DNA of 25,825 nucleotides from a virus (taxonomy: Duplodnaviria > Heunggongvirae > Uroviricota > Caudoviricetes), in the IMG/VR virus record IMGVR_UViG_2537561935_000023, positions 1 through 25,825 of that record; one strand, written 5' to 3'. A program made the position numbers and the translations under genes. This document shows positions 6,224-9,065 of the stretch, one piece after another; the first letter of the stretch is position 1, and every line of letters starts with the position of its first letter. Under the pieces are notes generated by a model. That model saw nothing but the letters and a program-made list of their open reading frames with translations. It had not been told where the DNA came from and ran no database searches.

Positions 6224-7168
6224 TCACAACCAGCCGACGCTCTCTCGCCATTTATAATTAGTAACTTTATCATTTTCGCTTATTTTTTTAGATATAGAGC
6301 GCGGCTCTCTTCCTAGATACTCAGATATTTCTATCGGGGACAAATCAAAATCAACAAGCATGACTCTAAGTTTTTCCATTTCCTTTAAAGTCCAAGGCTT
6401 GCCATAATTTTCATAAAGAGATACCTTATGCTCCCTGATAGTTCGCTTTCTCTGAGTTTCACTTTCCCTCTGAAAAATCTCGCTTTTAAATTGTGAACGG
6501 AACTCTTTACAGAAGTTGTTATCAGTTTTTTTGTTATATAGATTGCTAAAAATAAGCTGGGATGCCGGGTCTAAATCAGGTGTGTTAATAATGAAAACTT
6601 TGACCTTTTCCATATAGGGATATTCAATTTTACCCAATATGCTTAATTGCTTTATATTAAAAAAACCTCTCAAATCAAAAGATTTAATGAGCTTTGATTG
6701 GATTACACTTTCAATCCTGCTTGCATTTAAATAACAGTACTTTGCCATTGGAAGGGCCCATACTACCAGTTGAGGAATATATTTTTCTAATGCAATGCTC
6801 TGCCAATCAGTATCAAAGGTTTGGCTTTTTGCTAGCATGTTTTTCGGCAAATCAGAATACATTGTGGTAGATGCCCATATCTTATAATCATTCGCCAAGG
6901 CTTGATAGTATTTTGTGTGGTTATGAATTTTATAAGCTGACATGAAGCGATAAACGTCTTCGTCGTGACCAGCGTCGTAAATTGTTCGATTTCCTCTAAG
7001 ATAACCGTCGTAATGTTCGGTTATCCTTCTACCTACATTACAACTTACCCCAACGTAAACCACACGACTGAAAAGTCCTTTATGGACAATAAGATAAACT
7101 CCGCTACAGCCAGATTTCCTGGCCTCTGATAGAGAACCTAAAAATCTCCATTCCATAATTAAATCCAT
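6224..7168 (-). CDS. GIY-YIG nuclease-domain protein (314 aa) with a C-terminal putative helix-turn-helix region; AT-rich cargo gene
   Basis: N-terminal GVYLIVHKG...VVYVGVS.NVGRRITEHY matches the GIY-(about 10 aa)-YIG + Arg + Glu nuclease core; C-terminal ...WTLKEMEKL...SPIEISEYLGREPRSISKKI looks HTH-like; codon usage and AT content differ from flanking phage genes. Confidence 0.7.
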   Translation of the reverse strand: MDLIMEWRFLGSLSEARKSGCSGVYLIVHKGLFSRVVYVGVSCNVGRRITEHYDGYLRGNRTIYDAGHDEDVYRFMSAYKIHNHTKYYQALANDYKIWASTTMYSDLPKNMLAKSQTFDTDWQSIALEKYIPQLVVWALPMAKYCYLNASRIESVIQSKLIKSFDLRGFFNIKQLSILGKIEYPYMEKVKVFIINTPDLDPASQLIFSNLYNKKTDNNFCKEFRSQFKSEIFQRESETQRKRTIREHKVSLYENYGKPWTLKEMEKLRVMLVDFDLSPIEISEYLGREPRSISKKISENDKVTNYKWRESVGWL

Positions 7169-7336
7169 AATTATTGCTACTGTTTTTGTTTATCATTATT
7201 TTCGTGAAACTTCAACAATTTTATCCAAAAGCTAAGGGCAAAGACTTATATAATTATACTTGTCATCGTTAGCGATTATATAGAGTAGTGGCGCTGACCT
7301 GCTCCCTGGTGATTCACACAGAATGCTGTTAGTAAT

Positions 7337-7360
7337 GTCCGTTCCTCGCTCTCAGCGGAC
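7337..7360. repeat. Palindromic repeat, X-type copy 1 (GTCCGTTCCTCGCTCTCAGCGGAC)
   Basis: Terminal 5-bp inverted arms GTCCG/CGGAC around an asymmetric 14-bp core; 20 of 24 identical to 11550-11573 and 18 of 24 to 9320-9343. Confidence 0.65.
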
Positions 7361-7378
7361 CTTCAGCTCAGTGATATC

Positions 7379-7402
7379 GTCCGCTCTGTGCAAAGAGCGG
7401 AC
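7379..7402. repeat. Palindromic repeat, Y-type copy 2 (GTCCGCTCTGTGCAAAGAGCGGAC)
   Basis: Perfect 9-bp inverted arms with 6-bp spacer GTGCAA (10 bp including flanking C/G at 7378/7403); sits 18 bp after the X-type copy. Confidence 0.7.
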
Positions 7403-7715
7403 GTTGGTATGCAAGAGCCCTCCAAAAGTTGATGGTTGGTTTGCAGGGGGGCTTAAAGAAACTGCACTTATCAAGTTGAAGTTCTGTATTCAGCGAAATC
7501 GTAGCACTCTGACGATAAGTAACTCCGGTACTCCGCTCTTCGATGAAGAACCAGAGTAATCCCCCCGAAAAACCAGCGCATCAAAATTGGATCTTCAGCG
7601 GTAGCTTATCGGCTATCGGAAGTACAGGTGTGGATTCGTGGTGAATTGCTTTGATAATAAACGATTAATACGGAAAAACGCATTAATCATTTATTAGCTT
7701 TTAGTAAACCACAAT

Positions 7716-9065
7716 TTATTCCGTTTTACATATCATAGTAGTCGATTGGAGAATATAGTTTCTGGGAATGTACTCTTCAAAGTGTTCGTCCTTTTTAAAT
7801 ACATGAACTACATTTGGGAATAATTGATAGTCAACAGGGTGTATAGCGTTTGGATTATGGTACATGTACATGGCTGTACACCATGGTTCTTGATAGTTAG
7901 GGTCACTTACATCGGCTGAAAATGGATGTGGGGCTGCATCCTGATCAGTTTTAACACCACTGACGTACACTTTGAATCCACTCGCCTCTACACCTGCAAG
8001 AATTCCCATCCGGTTAAACTTAGGTATGGTTGCTTGAGTAGTGAGTAAAACGGCAGAAACATAATTATTTTGTTCTGAGCCAAAAAAGTTCGACTTGATA
8101 CTTCTATTTTCATCTGTATGTCTTTCAATAGAAATGCCTGACTCAATATCAATCCCGTACAAATAGCTATGCAAGGCTTCGCTTGAGAAGGCCATGGACA
8201 TTCTTTTTGAATAATCCTGCATTGCTATGACAAATGGTTTGTTCTTTGTATGGTTGAGTTCCCAGTAATGAACTTTCTCTGGCTCAGGGCAATGCCGGAC
8301 TTTTTTTAATAAACTTCTTGCAAACTTAAAAGGCATGACATTTAGAACATGTTTTCTTAATTCATCCATCTGTTCATCGTTAATGACTTTTCTTTCAAGA
8401 GGGGCTTCTGCTTCAGCAATGCTTACAGCCTCTACAGCAATTTCCACTCCAAATTTAGATAGCAGAAAATCTGGTTGATTGTATTCTCTATTCATTTCAA
8501 AGTCGAGTTCATAAAATACAGCGTTCAAATATAATTCAAATAACCTTGAATTAAATGCATCACTTTGAAAATCCCTTATAAATATTCCATCAGGATCTTT
8601 GAACCAGTATGCAAGTTCCTCAAGAACAATATATGCAGGGAAATGAAGAGGGTCTTCGAGGAGCATTTTTATATAAACATTCCTTTTTTTCGCTGGGACC
8701 TTACTCAAGAATAATGAAAAAGGTTTGGTTGATTCATCGCCTTGCATGAATGTACCATTTTGGTGCTGCGCCAGCATCTTTGGTATGTCATCGTTCAAAT
8801 TATTAAGCAAGACATCCATTGAATCAAATGAAGCCAAGACGTTTATTGCTCTGAATTTTTTATCTAAATCCCGACCTAAGACTATTGCGTTAAAATCTTT
8901 ATCAATATTGCATATGATTATTGTGGATAACAATGTTATCCCATTCCCCTCATATTTAAACCAGCGTATCTCCTCAGAAAATGTCTTAAGGTAAGGTGAG
9001 CGACCGTAAAAATAAATATCAAATTGTTCTTTGCTGATCTCACTGAAGTGTAATCCTGCGTTCAT
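7716..9065 (-). CDS. Hypothetical protein (449 aa), AT-rich cargo gene; possible PD-(D/E)xK-like segment
   Basis: Long minus-strand ORF with AGGA about 8 nt upstream of the ATG; segment ...QPDFLLSKFGVEIAVEAVS... weakly resembles a PD-(D/E)xK core; no confident family assignment. Confidence 0.65.
   Translation of the reverse strand: MNAGLHFSEISKEQFDIYFYGRSPYLKTFSEEIRWFKYEGNGITLLSTIIICNIDKDFNAIVLGRDLDKKFRAINVLASFDSMDVLLNNLNDDIPKMLAQHQNGTFMQGDESTKPFSLFLSKVPAKKRNVYIKMLLEDPLHFPAYIVLEELAYWFKDPDGIFIRDFQSDAFNSRLFELYLNAVFYELDFEMNREYNQPDFLLSKFGVEIAVEAVSIAEAEAPLERKVINDEQMDELRKHVLNVMPFKFARSLLKKVRHCPEPEKVHYWELNHTKNKPFVIAMQDYSKRMSMAFSSEALHSYLYGIDIESGISIERHTDENRSIKSNFFGSEQNNYVSAVLLTTQATIPKFNRMGILAGVEASGFKVYVSGVKTDQDAAPHPFSADVSDPNYQEPWCTAMYMYHNPNAIHPVDYQLFPNVVHVFKKDEHFEEYIPRNYILQSTTMICKTE

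What the first reader, a model, noticed from the sequence alone, without database searches (positions are those of the whole stretch)
6224..9065. AT-rich GIY-YIG nuclease gene and adjacent 449-aa unknown: candidate defence or homing-nuclease module
Both genes are markedly AT-rich with atypical codon usage relative to the surrounding prophage, are transcribed in the same direction, and are individually bounded by the palindromic repeats. The first encodes a clear GIY-YIG catalytic core with a C-terminal HTH-like region; the second has no recognisable family apart from a weak PD-(D/E)xK-like segment. No methyltransferase motifs (DPPY/NPPY, FxGxG) were seen, arguing against a classical R-M pair.
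Basis: partly seen in the sequence, partly recalled or inferred. Interest (0 to 1): 0.65.

Follow-up and report, generated by a model that had tools for sequence, protein, structure and literature searches.

The report
Two independent nuclease cassettes in prophage
The two AT-rich genes are not a pair: one is the already known anti-phage gene PD-T7-1, the other an uncharacterised GIY-YIG nuclease, and each sits in its own movable DNA module bounded by 24-bp recombination sites next to a small tyrosine recombinase, a cassette system I could not find described.

Summary
Two AT-rich genes (GC 0.36-0.37 against about 0.47-0.50 in the flanks) lie on the minus strand of a Qin-like E. coli prophage, each bounded by 24-nt palindromes.

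The 449-aa protein is a full-length member of PD-T7-1 (PADLOC E=7e-157). PD-T7-1 is an experimentally validated single-gene anti-phage system, so this gene is already known.

The 314-aa protein is a GIY-YIG nuclease: all catalytic residues are invariant and the predicted fold matches. It also has a C-terminal Myb/SANT-like HTH. Its family is rare and uncharacterised.

The two genes are not partners. None of 23 other loci carrying the GIY gene has PD-T7-1 within 10 kb, and each gene occurs alone in other E. coli.

Homology breakpoints fall exactly inside the palindromes. These come in two types, A (centre GAGCGA) and B (centre TGGCAC), each built as 9-6-9. A 200-aa tyrosine recombinase with its own A site lies next door.

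Such modules form arrays in Citrobacter, Enterobacter, Pantoea, Salmonella, Proteus and Idiomarina, and around flxA in K-12. Their cargo is mixed: defence genes, transporters and regulators.

The reading as a two-gene defence or homing module is not supported. The GIY gene is a plausible stand-alone defence nuclease, untested. The cassette platform is the most novel element.

The parts
6163..6186 (-). B-type recombination site (read on the - strand: GTCCGCTCT TGGCAC AAAGCGGAC). It is the distal end of the GIY module and the junction with the prophage backbone (DUF977 side).
   Evidence: Homology of the GIY module in other genomes stops here. The B site of L032 is a hybrid of this site and 7379-7402.
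6224..7168 (-). 314-aa GIY-YIG nuclease with a helical linker and a C-terminal Myb/SANT-like HTH. It is the single cargo gene of module 1.
7337..7360 (-). A-type recombination site (read on the - strand: GTCCGCTGA GAGCGA GGAACGGAC), the 5' boundary of the GIY module.
   Evidence: The junction in L002 falls here. The right arm travels with the GIY module and the left arm with the context.
7361..7378 (-). Conserved 18-nt spacer (..CTGAGCTGAAG) between the B and A sites. B-spacer-A forms the 66-nt inter-module junction.
   Evidence: Alignment of 20 junctions from 10 sources, the window and 9 other loci.
7379..7402 (-). B-type recombination site, the 3' boundary of the PD-T7-1 module.
7574..7654 (+). 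Remnant of an AlpA-family HTH gene, carried inside the PD-T7-1 module in every copy seen.
   Evidence: RefSeq pseudogene annotation in L001, L031 and L032.
7716..9065 (-). PD-T7-1 (449 aa), a single-gene anti-phage defence protein with a PD-(D/E)xK-like core (invariant E177, D199, E212).
   Evidence: PADLOC PDLC04073 E=7.3e-157 over residues 8-447. Alignment. Literature.
9207..9234 (-). Best sigma-70-like promoter match upstream of PD-T7-1 (TTAACA-16-TATAGT). It lies inside the module.
   Evidence: This is a consensus match only, and the total count of matches is not above chance.
9320..9343 (-). A-type site, degenerate in its left arm. It is the 5' boundary of the PD-T7-1 module and lies 39 nt upstream of the recombinase ATG.
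9347..9385 (+). Perfect 15-nt inverted repeat whose right arm contains the RBS and ATG of the recombinase gene.
   Evidence: z = -5.9. The Proteus version shows compensatory changes.
9383..9985 (+). 200-aa tyrosine recombinase ('sInt'), the candidate enzyme for the A/B sites.
   Evidence: PF00589 E=2e-17. Weak NCBIfam matches to Xer and integron-type recombinases, best E=1e-14 and all far below the curated cut-offs. R, K, HxxR and H..Y motifs can be read in the sequence. The gene co-occurs with A/B sites in E. coli, Proteus and Idiomarina.
10345..11325 (+). 326-aa protein with no family match. It is cargo of the recombinase module.
   Evidence: no matches.
11550..11573 (-). A-type site that closes the recombinase module and joins the prophage backbone (hok/sok side).
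   Evidence: The A site of L032 is a hybrid of this site and 9320-9343.

Best explanation
The region holds two unrelated single-gene cargo modules. They were inserted side by side by site-specific recombination, between the replication genes and the hok/rem/Q region of a Qin-like lambdoid prophage.

Module 2 (about 7379-9343) carries PD-T7-1, a known stand-alone anti-phage protein with a PD-(D/E)xK-like nuclease core. Module 1 (about 6163-7360) carries an uncharacterised stand-alone GIY-YIG endonuclease tethered to a Myb-like DNA-binding domain. I think this is most likely another single-gene anti-phage or anti-MGE nuclease.

Each module runs from the right half of an A site (centre GAGCGA) to the left half of a B site (centre TGGCAC). 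Both site types are built as two inverted 9-bp arms (GTCCGCTnn) around a 6-bp asymmetric centre, the architecture of tyrosine-recombinase core sites. A third module (9344-11573) is bounded by two A sites and carries a 200-aa tyrosine recombinase with an A site just upstream of it.

My proposed mechanism is as follows. The recombinase exchanges strands within the 6-bp centres, A with A and B with B. This excises a module as a circle carrying a B-18 nt-A junction, and the circle re-inserts at any A or B site.

Shown here: the identities of the proteins; the independence of the two genes; the breakpoints inside the sites; the arrays in other genomes. Shown by others: the PD-T7-1 defence phenotype. 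Inferred: the nuclease activities, a defence role for the GIY gene, and that this recombinase is the enzyme that moves the modules.
For: PD-T7-1 identity:
- PADLOC E=7.3e-157, full length.
- The reference gene (ECOR46, RCQ85672.1) spans 1351 nt, consistent with a product of about 449 aa. It was cloned alone with about 300 bp upstream and protected against T7 and the T-even phages.
- A second study reports protection.

GIY-YIG identity:
- Invariant catalytic set with I-TevI-like spacing.
- AF2 pLDDT 92.

Independence of the two genes:
- 0 of 23 GIY loci from other species have PD-T7-1 within +-10 kb.
- In E. coli the GIY module is in 289 genomes, the PD-T7-1 module in 201, and the contiguous pair in 180.
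- L032 has PD-T7-1 alone in the same prophage position. L029 and L030 have GIY alone in other islands.

Breakpoints:
- Homology between L032 and the window jumps 6190 to 7379 and 9343 to 11539, inside a B site and an A site.
- L002 jumps 9317 to 7351, inside an A site.
- Five near-identical GIY modules share the A right arm and the B left arm, but have five different A left arms and five different B right arms.

Sites and recombinase:
- 5 sites in the window against 0.68 expected.
- 20 B-spacer-A junctions from 10 sources (the window and 9 other loci) align.
- Arrays occur in L015, L019, L007 and L012.
- The same sites lie next to recombinase homologues in E. coli islands and plasmids, in Proteus and in Idiomarina.

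Defence neighbourhood of the GIY gene:
- PD-T7-1 (window); NACHT+HEPN (L030); type I RM+DarTG (L029); retron II-A (L008); Ppl-like ATPase (L014).
Against: - There is no experiment on the GIY-YIG protein. It is absent from PADLOC, where only motif-level hits appear (E about 0.01).
- Module cargo is not defence-specific: ArsB/ArsC, MFS, LysR, GNAT and a TonB receptor with an ABC importer also occur. Guilt by association is therefore weaker than in a pure defence island.
- Several arrays (L015, L019, L012) have no recombinase gene within +-10 kb. The enzyme assignment therefore rests on co-occurrence only.
- Exchange at the conserved 66-nt junctions by short-homology recombination is not excluded.
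Confidence: 0.75

Rival explanations
1. The GIY-YIG gene and the 449-aa gene form one two-component defence or toxin-immunity system and work together.
For: They are adjacent, on the same strand and similarly AT-rich. They are contiguous at 100% identity in 180 E. coli genomes.
Against: - A 547-bp gap separates them. It contains two recombination sites and a gene remnant on the other strand.
- 0 of 23 GIY loci elsewhere carry PD-T7-1.
- PD-T7-1 sits alone in the same prophage slot in L032 and next to a type II RM in L031.
- PD-T7-1 was cloned and validated alone.
Confidence: 0.04
2. The GIY-YIG protein is a free-standing homing endonuclease of the I-TevI/Seg type. It would spread its own gene by cutting GIY-less alleles.
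For: - The architecture, an N-terminal GIY-YIG domain, a linker and a C-terminal HTH, parallels I-TevI.
- It is a single AT-rich gene found at 77-99% identity in many genera.
- It occurs as a lone insertion next to ribonucleotide reductase in Pseudomonas oryzihabitans.
Against: - No relative in 50,697 phage genomes and no significant viral fold match.
- Flanking genes are unrelated between loci, so there is no conserved target gene.
- In 12-13 of 19 enterobacterial copies the unit ends at A and B sites at fixed distances. Exchange points lie inside the 6-bp centres rather than in variable co-conversion tracts.
- The PD-T7-1 module has the same ends without any GIY-YIG gene.
Confidence: 0.15
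3. The modules are real, but they are exchanged by short-homology (Red/RecET or RecA) recombination at the conserved 66-nt junctions. On this reading the 200-aa recombinase is not the agent, and the palindromes could be protein-binding or terminator elements.
For: - The junctions are conserved in sequence (71% mean column identity).
- The host element is a lambdoid prophage with an exonuclease gene.
- Several arrays lack a nearby recombinase.
Against: - Exchange points map to within the 24-bp sites, between the two 9-bp arms. That is too short for efficient homologous recombination, and is what a tyrosine recombinase produces.
- Two centre types keep register (A with A, B with B).
- The recombinase module itself is bounded by A sites and is precisely absent in L032.
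- The recombinase and the sites co-occur across orders of Gammaproteobacteria, on plasmids and in chromosomes outside phages.
- There is no T-run after the palindromes.
Confidence: 0.12
4. The pair is a restriction-modification or other self/non-self nuclease system whose modification partner is hidden.
For: Two predicted nucleases lie side by side. The PD-T7-1 module lies next to a type II RM in L031.
Against: Neither protein has a methyltransferase domain, and no such gene lies elsewhere in the modules. PD-T7-1 works as a single gene in K-12.
Confidence: 0.01

Closest known systems
PD-T7-1 (Vassallo et al. 2022, Nat Microbiol; PADLOC PDLC04073)
   Same: The 449-aa protein matches the family model over its full length (E=7e-157). 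Its length agrees with the 1351-nt span of the reference ORF. It has the same weak PD-(D/E)xK/Hjc-like segment at residues about 171-219. It is a single gene with its own upstream region and is prophage-borne in E. coli.
   Different: Nothing of substance: it is a member. What is new here is that the gene, with an AlpA remnant, forms a discrete 1.97-kb module bounded by A and B recombination sites.
PD-T7-5 (same study)
   Same: A distant relative (E=3e-40 over residues 117-427). A PD-T7-5 homologue is itself a site-bounded module next to a recombinase homologue in E. coli M7424 (L027 11445-12512).
   Different: It is shorter (about 350 aa) and lacks the N-terminal beta domain.
GIY-YIG defence or restriction nucleases (PD-T4-3, PD-lambda-1, UzuA, R.Eco29kI, T4 EndoII)
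   Same: The same catalytic fold and residues. A stand-alone gene located in mobile or defence contexts.
   Different: No family-level sequence match; there are only motif-level hits. The protein has an insertion of roughly 100 aa between the Arg/His helix and the catalytic Glu, and a C-terminal Myb/SANT-like HTH. It is untested.
I-TevI/Seg free-standing GIY-YIG homing endonucleases
   Same: An N-terminal GIY-YIG domain, a linker and a C-terminal HTH DNA-binding domain.
   Different: It is not found in phage genomes, has no conserved target gene, and its mobile unit ends at recombinase sites.
Integron gene cassettes (IntI/attC/attI)
   Same: Arrays of small mobile units separated by palindromic sites. 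A tyrosine recombinase is transcribed divergently from the array head in this window. Cargo is mixed and includes anti-phage genes.
   Different: The recombinase has 200 aa, without the IntI-specific insert. The sites are conserved in sequence (24 bp, 9-6-9, two centre types) rather than conserved in structure, show no covariation and fold poorly. Modules carry their own upstream regions, hold 1-4 genes, and lie in either orientation.
Acinetobacter pdif (dif) modules moved by XerC/XerD (e.g. PMC9455709)
   Same: Discrete accessory-gene modules, including toxin-antitoxin and resistance genes, bounded by sites of about 28 bp with two arms and a 6-bp centre that tyrosine recombinases recognise. 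They are found in many plasmid contexts.
   Different: The sites here are unrelated to dif. They are in direct orientation with two heterospecific centres. A dedicated small recombinase is associated with them. They occur in chromosomes, prophages and plasmids of Enterobacterales and other Gammaproteobacteria.
Rhizobium etli IntA/attA-attD (PMC4928290)
   Same: A simple bidirectional tyrosine recombinase. It needs only a 23-bp site made of two palindromic arms and a divergent centre (TCCGATAAG CATTA CTTATCGGA). The site lies about 100 bp upstream of its own gene, and the outer arm bases TCCG..CGGA are shared.
   Different: IntA has 382 aa and shows no detectable similarity to the 200-aa recombinase. 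It is known for plasmid cointegration, not for cassette arrays.

Membership tests
PD-T7-1 defence system | Full-length match to the family profile | tested here: met
   PDLC04073 E=7.3e-157, 520.7 bits, residues 8-447 of 449 against profile positions 2-448 of 452.
PD-T7-1 defence system | Single-gene system with no obligate partner gene | tested here: met
   The module occurs alone in L031 and L032. The reference was cloned as one ORF plus about 300 bp upstream.
PD-T7-1 defence system | PD-(D/E)xK-like nuclease core | tested here: inconclusive
PD-T7-1 defence system | Protection against phage | not testable with these tools
   Shown for family members by Vassallo 2022 (T7 and the T-even phages) and by PMC12409345 (a Teseptimavirus; smaller T7 plaques). 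It has not been shown for this allele.
GIY-YIG nuclease superfamily | GIY...YIG motifs with the catalytic Arg, Glu and Asn | tested here: met
   Y25 (GVY), Y38 (YVG), R48, H52, E153 and N171 are invariant in 27 sequences. The Y-Y-R-H spacing is 13/10/4. From memory, not checked here, I-TevI has 11/10/4.
GIY-YIG nuclease superfamily | Pfam PF01541 above the gathering score | tested here: not met
   15.8 bits against a cut-off of 22.6. Three homologues (P0054, P0055, P0064) carry a precomputed PF01541 hit.
GIY-YIG nuclease superfamily | GIY-YIG alpha/beta fold | tested here: met
Free-standing homing endonuclease (I-TevI/Seg type) | Nuclease domain plus a separate DNA-binding domain | tested here: met
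   GIY-YIG domain plus a Myb/SANT-like HTH.
Free-standing homing endonuclease (I-TevI/Seg type) | Resides in a phage or intron context beside a conserved target gene, with HE-less alleles at the same locus | tested here: not met
   No tblastn hit in 50,697 phage genomes. Flanks are unrelated in 23 loci.
Free-standing homing endonuclease (I-TevI/Seg type) | Site-specific cleavage of the HE-less allele and co-conversion of flanks | not testable with these tools
   The sequence pattern argues against it, because the ends are fixed at A and B sites.
Known GIY-YIG defence families (PD-T4-3, PD-lambda-1, Uzume, PDC-S14) | Significant match to the family profile | tested here: not met
   The only hits are PDC-S14 (E=0.0075) and UzuA (E=0.015), over residues 12-64.
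Restriction-modification pair | A cognate methyltransferase | tested here: not met
   No methyltransferase domain in either protein, nor any other ORF of that kind in the modules.
Integron | IntI-type integrase (about 320 aa with the IntI-specific insert) | tested here: not met
   The recombinase has 200 aa. Integron integrase models score E=0.0018-0.0026, far below their cut-offs.
Integron | attC sites conserved in structure rather than sequence, and recombined as folded single strands | tested here: not met
   Arms and centres are conserved in sequence. Covariation is not above the controls (28 of 500 shuffles). A sites fold weakly or not at all.
Integron | Promoterless cassettes in one orientation, driven by Pc | tested here: not met
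   Modules hold 1-4 genes in either orientation, with 130-300 bp of their own upstream DNA.
pdif/dif modules | Bounded by XerC/XerD-binding dif-like sites in inverted orientation | tested here: not met
   The site sequence GTCCGCTnn-N6-nnAGCGGAC is not dif-like (comparison with the dif sequence from memory). All sites are in one orientation.
Tyrosine recombinase (for the 200-aa protein) | Phage_integrase catalytic domain with the R..K..HxxR..H..Y residues | tested here: met
   PF00589 63.9 bits against a cut-off of 27.1. LRGCD, QQKTG, HSMRRT and LGHKKLESTVRY can be read directly in the sequence.

The most novel reading that the evidence does not exclude
Both genes are cargo of a cassette platform of Proteobacteria that I could not find described. 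Its parts are a compact 200-aa tyrosine recombinase and two heterospecific 24-bp core sites (A and B; 9-6-9). Together they shuffle self-contained gene modules among prophages, genomic islands and plasmids. Cargo includes defence systems such as PD-T7-1, PD-T7-5, HEC-08 and Lamassu parts, as well as transporters, regulators and toxins. Traces extend to E. coli K-12, where flxA in Qin is flanked by a B and an A site. On this reading the GIY-YIG/Myb protein is a new single-gene anti-phage nuclease carried by the platform.
Probability: 0.4. Interest if true: 0.85.

Novelty: new variant of a known kind. Interest (0 to 1): 0.6.

Why it matters
For the finding as given, one gene can now be named: PD-T7-1, which is known. 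The other becomes a concrete, cheap test case, a rare GIY-YIG/Myb nuclease that keeps turning up beside defence systems.

The larger point concerns how defence genes move. The two genes show that single defence genes in E. coli prophages can be precise, portable modules with defined 24-bp ends, exchanged between prophages, islands and plasmids of different genera. If the small recombinase does this, three things follow.
- It would explain one way in which prophage 'moron' or defence slots are refilled.
- It would give a sequence signature (A/B sites) for finding new accessory and defence genes.
- It would offer a minimal recombinase with two orthogonal short sites as a tool for cassette exchange.

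Tried and rejected
- **Two-gene operon or system.** Rejected on context.
- **R-M pair.** No methyltransferase.
- **Homing endonuclease.** No phage relatives and fixed site-bounded ends.
- **Palindromes as intrinsic terminators.** None of the five terminator-like sites in the scan coincides with a palindrome, and no T-run follows them.
- **Palindromes as a known RNA family.** No Rfam family covers them.
- **Palindromes as integron attC-like folded sites.** No covariation, and the A sites fold poorly.
- **Recombinase as a homologue of R. etli IntA.** Not detectable by tblastn; IntA has 382 aa.
- **Solved-structure relatives by sequence.** None for either protein or for the recombinase.
- **Exact-sequence look-up of both proteins in the cluster table.** Nothing returned.
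- **Literature.** Five keyword searches for a description of the cassette system, plus one search for the exact 15-mers of the sites, found nothing (the intK search was). This does not prove that it is undescribed, since subscription journals are not covered. The Abi-versus-direct classification of PD-T7-1 could not be read, because it is given only in a figure.
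Full report
**Setting.** The window is part of an E. coli chromosome. It carries a Qin-like lambdoid prophage integrated next to rspAB/ynfA: int, xis, exonuclease, ydfD, dicB, a replication-type gene, DUF977, then the region in question, then hok/sok, rem, DUF968, rusA, Q and tRNAs. Stretch 5600-9700 is 100% identical in many complete genomes, and 180 of 5426 genomes hold at least 80% of it.

**Observation.** Their GC is 0.362 and 0.366 (GC3 0.34), against 0.47-0.50 in the flanking prophage genes.

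The palindromes are real. The pattern GTCCGCT-N10-AGCGGAC occurs five times in the window with up to three mismatches. The expected number is 0.68, and none of 100 shuffles reached five. All five are in one orientation and lie between 6163 and 11573.

**The 449-aa protein is PD-T7-1.** Pfam and NCBIfam find nothing in it. The PADLOC model for PD-T7-1 matches it end to end (E=7.3e-157, residues 8-447). PD-T7-5 matches more weakly (E=3e-40).

PD-T7-1 was isolated from ECOR46 in a functional selection. It was cloned as a single ORF with about 300 bp of upstream DNA, and the ORF spans 1351 nt, which fits a product of about 449 aa. [quoted passage not shown] A later study saw protection against a Teseptimavirus and smaller T7 plaques.

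The authors' HHpred hits were weak: Hjc at 80% probability, PDDEXK_5 and others, all over residues 171-219.

**The 314-aa protein is a GIY-YIG nuclease with a Myb-like HTH.** The Pfam hit is below threshold (15.8 against 22.6 bits). The family is nevertheless coherent. It comprises 72 clusters of about 310 aa in Enterobacterales, Vibrio, Aeromonas, Pseudoalteromonas, Thalassotalea and one Undibacterium.

Y25, Y38, R48, H52, E153 and N171 are invariant. Their Y-Y-R-H spacing is 13/10/4; as far as I recall, I-TevI has 11/10/4. An insertion of roughly 100 residues lies before the catalytic Glu.

The family is rare. Only 134 representatives out of 1.84 billion score E<=1e-3, and about ten of those are full length. 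It has no match in 50,697 phage genomes and no significant match among viral structure models. It does not belong to the known GIY-YIG defence families in PADLOC, where it gives only motif-level hits.

**The two genes are not a pair.** I fetched 23 loci from other species that encode a relative of the GIY protein. None encodes PD-T7-1 within 10 kb.

In complete E. coli genomes the GIY stretch occurs in 289 genomes, the PD-T7-1 stretch in 201 and the contiguous pair in 180.

Elsewhere the GIY gene is followed by a type II-A retron (Pectobacterium, L008) or lies next to a Ppl-like ATPase (Serratia, L014). Wherever it occurs it is a single gene that is AT-rich relative to its host. In Pseudomonas oryzihabitans, for example, it has GC 0.40 in a 0.62 background.

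**Each gene is a discrete module whose ends lie inside the palindromes.** DNA similarity between the window and the other GIY loci is confined to about 6163-7351/7372, that is, the gene plus the flanking palindromes.

The comparison with L032 is the clearest. Its backbone matches window 4439-6190. The match then jumps to 7379-9343, and then to 11539-15655. One junction therefore lies inside a hybrid of the palindromes at 6163 and 7379, and the other inside a hybrid of those at 9320 and 11550. In Salmonella diarizonae (L002) the recombinase gene abuts the GIY module directly. The match there jumps from window 9317 to 7351, with an 18-nt overlap inside the palindromes at 9320 and 7337.

**Two kinds of site.** The palindromes fall into two types. 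Read in the direction of the cargo genes, A is GTCCGCTnn GAGCGA nnAGCGGAC and B is GTCCGCTnn TGGCAC nnAGCGGAC. Each has two inverted 9-bp arms around an asymmetric 6-bp centre. A precedes each gene and B follows it. Adjacent modules are joined by B, a conserved 18-nt spacer (..CTGAGCTGAAG) and A. Twenty such junctions from ten sources, the window and nine other loci, align.

**Where exchange takes place.** Five near-identical copies of the GIY module (window, L029, L030, L002, L019) share the A right arm (GGAACGGAC plus attactaacagc) and the B left arm (attttgcaaa plus GTCCGCTCT). They have five different A left arms and five different B right arms. The three PD-T7-1 modules behave in the same way. 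Exchange therefore happens between the arms, within the 6-bp centres, as a tyrosine recombinase would do it.

The arms are conserved rather than covarying (28 of 500 shuffles reach the observed score). The A sites fold poorly as single strands. Rfam has no family for them. They look like double-stranded core-type sites, not integron attC hairpins.

**The candidate enzyme.** ORF 9383-9985 encodes a 200-aa tyrosine recombinase (PF00589 E=2e-17). The Arg, Lys, HxxR and His..Tyr motifs are readable in the sequence. An A site lies 39 nt upstream of its ATG. A perfect 15-nt inverted repeat covers its RBS and start codon.

The recombinase gene and the unknown 326-aa gene form a third module, bounded by two A sites and precisely absent from L032.

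Close homologues (about 93% nucleotide identity) occur in 917 E. coli genomes, in unrelated islands and on plasmids, and A/B sites lie near them. In Proteus and Idiomarina the same sites, some of them perfect, lie within a few kb of the homologue. In Proteus the arrangement of A site, hairpin and ATG recurs, with compensatory changes in the hairpin.

The protein family is very large: the 8000-candidate scoring limit was reached, and 7999 candidates scored E<=1e-10. It is found on 405 plasmids of many Proteobacteria and in almost no sequenced phage.

That this enzyme moves the modules is an inference from co-occurrence. Some arrays (L015, L019, L012) have no copy of it within 10 kb.

**Arrays and cargo.** Citrobacter youngae (L015) has at least six B-spacer-A junctions in 8 kb. 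Two of them are separated by only about 80 nt, an 'empty' position. Enterobacter bugandensis, two Pantoea genomes, Serratia and Salmonella also have arrays.

Cargo is mixed. It includes PADLOC families HEC-08, PD-T7-5 (L027 11445-12512), LmuB, DUF3644 and PDC-S64. It also includes ArsB/ArsC, MFS and LysE transporters, LysR regulators, GNAT acetyltransferases, a TonB receptor with an ABC importer, and a colicin pore domain. Modules hold one to four genes in either orientation.

In K-12 MG1655 the Qin gene flxA is flanked by a B site and an A site.

**How it most likely works.** PD-T7-1 is a stand-alone sensor-nuclease whose trigger is unknown. Its defence phenotype has been shown by others. The GIY protein is most likely an active DNA endonuclease positioned by its Myb-like domain.

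I put a stand-alone anti-phage or anti-MGE role for the GIY protein at roughly 0.45, because it repeatedly sits among defence systems and travels on the same platform as proven defence genes. I put a selfish homing-type role at 0.15. The remainder goes to other functions or none.

For the platform, the recombinase would bind the 9-bp arms and exchange strands in the centres, A with A and B with B. This would excise a module as a circle with a B-spacer-A junction and insert it at any A or B site.

The arrangement in the window can be derived from an L032-like ancestor by one B x B insertion (the GIY module) and one A x A insertion (the recombinase module). The arm polymorphisms agree with that derivation.

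**Comparison with what is known.** Integrons share the array logic and, as shown recently, defence cargo. They differ in the integrase, in the nature of the sites, and in having promoterless cassettes in a single orientation.

Acinetobacter pdif modules are the closest in logic: accessory modules between short tyrosine-recombinase sites. They use host XerCD, dif-like sites and inverted orientation.

R. etli IntA shows that a simple tyrosine recombinase can act in both directions on a 23-bp site of 9-5-9 design placed just upstream of its own gene. IntA, however, has 382 aa and is not detectably related to the 200-aa protein.

I found no paper describing these sites or this use of the recombinase, either by keywords or by exact site sequences. 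The library searched omits most subscription journals.

**Verdict.** The GIY-YIG/Myb family is a reasonable new defence candidate. The site-bounded module system and its small recombinase are the part most worth following up.

Noticed in passing
window 20795-22694 (- strand): A second AT-rich island (GC 0.33-0.36). It holds a reverse transcriptase of PADLOC class RT_UG17 (E=1e-158) overlapping a SLATT 2TM effector gene (RTasSLATT, E=1.5e-56), that is, a defence-associated RT system. It lies next to a DinI-like gene and a 365-aa integrase (23226-24323) beside a Dus-family gene (dihydrouridine synthase, Pfam PF01207). No A/B sites flank it.
   Followed up: partly
window 9347-9385; L035/L036/L037 about 9950-10003: A perfect 15-nt inverted repeat whose right arm holds the RBS and ATG of the 200-aa recombinase (DNA fold z = -5.9). 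The Proteus homologues have the same hairpin with compensatory base changes (CATAATTAAATCTC / GAGATTTAATTATG). This suggests translational occlusion or an operator.
   Followed up: partly
L038 (E. coli K-12 MG1655, NC_000913.3) 7982-8005 and 8973-8996: In the K-12 Qin prophage, flxA is flanked by a B-type and an A-type site. The flanks of these sites are identical to those of sites on plasmid NZ_CP021681.1 (L028), one of which lies beside relBE there. K-12 has no detectable homologue of the 200-aa recombinase in this stretch.
   Followed up: partly
L027 (E. coli M7424) 11189-12641: A PD-T7-5 homologue (356 aa, 25% identical to the window's PD-T7-1) is itself a module bounded by A and B-A sites. 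It lies downstream of a recombinase homologue and a CBS-domain gene.
   Followed up: partly
L015 (Citrobacter youngae ATCC 29220) 6468-14206: An array of at least six B-spacer-A junctions. Two junctions are only about 80 nt apart (10982-11191), an apparently empty cassette position. One module encodes ArsB and neighbouring small genes. No recombinase homologue lies within +-10 kb.
   Followed up: partly
window 7574-7654 (+): A fragment of an AlpA-family regulator gene lies inside the PD-T7-1 module in every copy seen (window, L031, L032). The module was therefore captured together with a piece of its former neighbourhood.
   Followed up: no
window 10345-11325 (+): A 326-aa ORF that travels with the recombinase has no match in Pfam, NCBIfam, PHROGs or PADLOC. 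In other loci the gene in this position differs: an ETEC_3214 family protein, a CBS-domain protein, or a 269-aa hypothetical protein.
   Followed up: no
window 11885-12209: The hok/sok locus (Rfam sok, 111.7 bits; hokD annotated in the identical RefSeq record) lies directly after the last A site. Three tRNA genes lie at 15421-15727.
   Followed up: no
L021 (Pseudomonas oryzihabitans) 3512-4447: Here the GIY-YIG homologue is a lone insertion of GC 0.40 in a 0.62 background. The next genes downstream are an unidentified 447-aa ORF and then the large subunit of ribonucleotide reductase, and no A/B sites are present. This is the only context reminiscent of homing-endonuclease biology.
   Followed up: no
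L037 (Proteus) 1592-14219; L036 7162-9774; L035 5815-6150: Recombinase homologues in Proteus sit among defence-type genes: a DNA methylase with an MvaI/BcnI nuclease, SIR2 with DUF87 (HerA-like), DUF3800, a LEM-3 GIY-YIG gene, an 870-aa SMC/AAA protein at the end of a prophage tail module, and a TIR gene.
   Followed up: no
window 16023-18185: A stretch of unusually high GC (0.60-0.64), annotated in the identical RefSeq record as a truncated phage tail-tip gene fused after a truncated holin gene. The late region of this prophage is therefore badly decayed.
   Followed up: no
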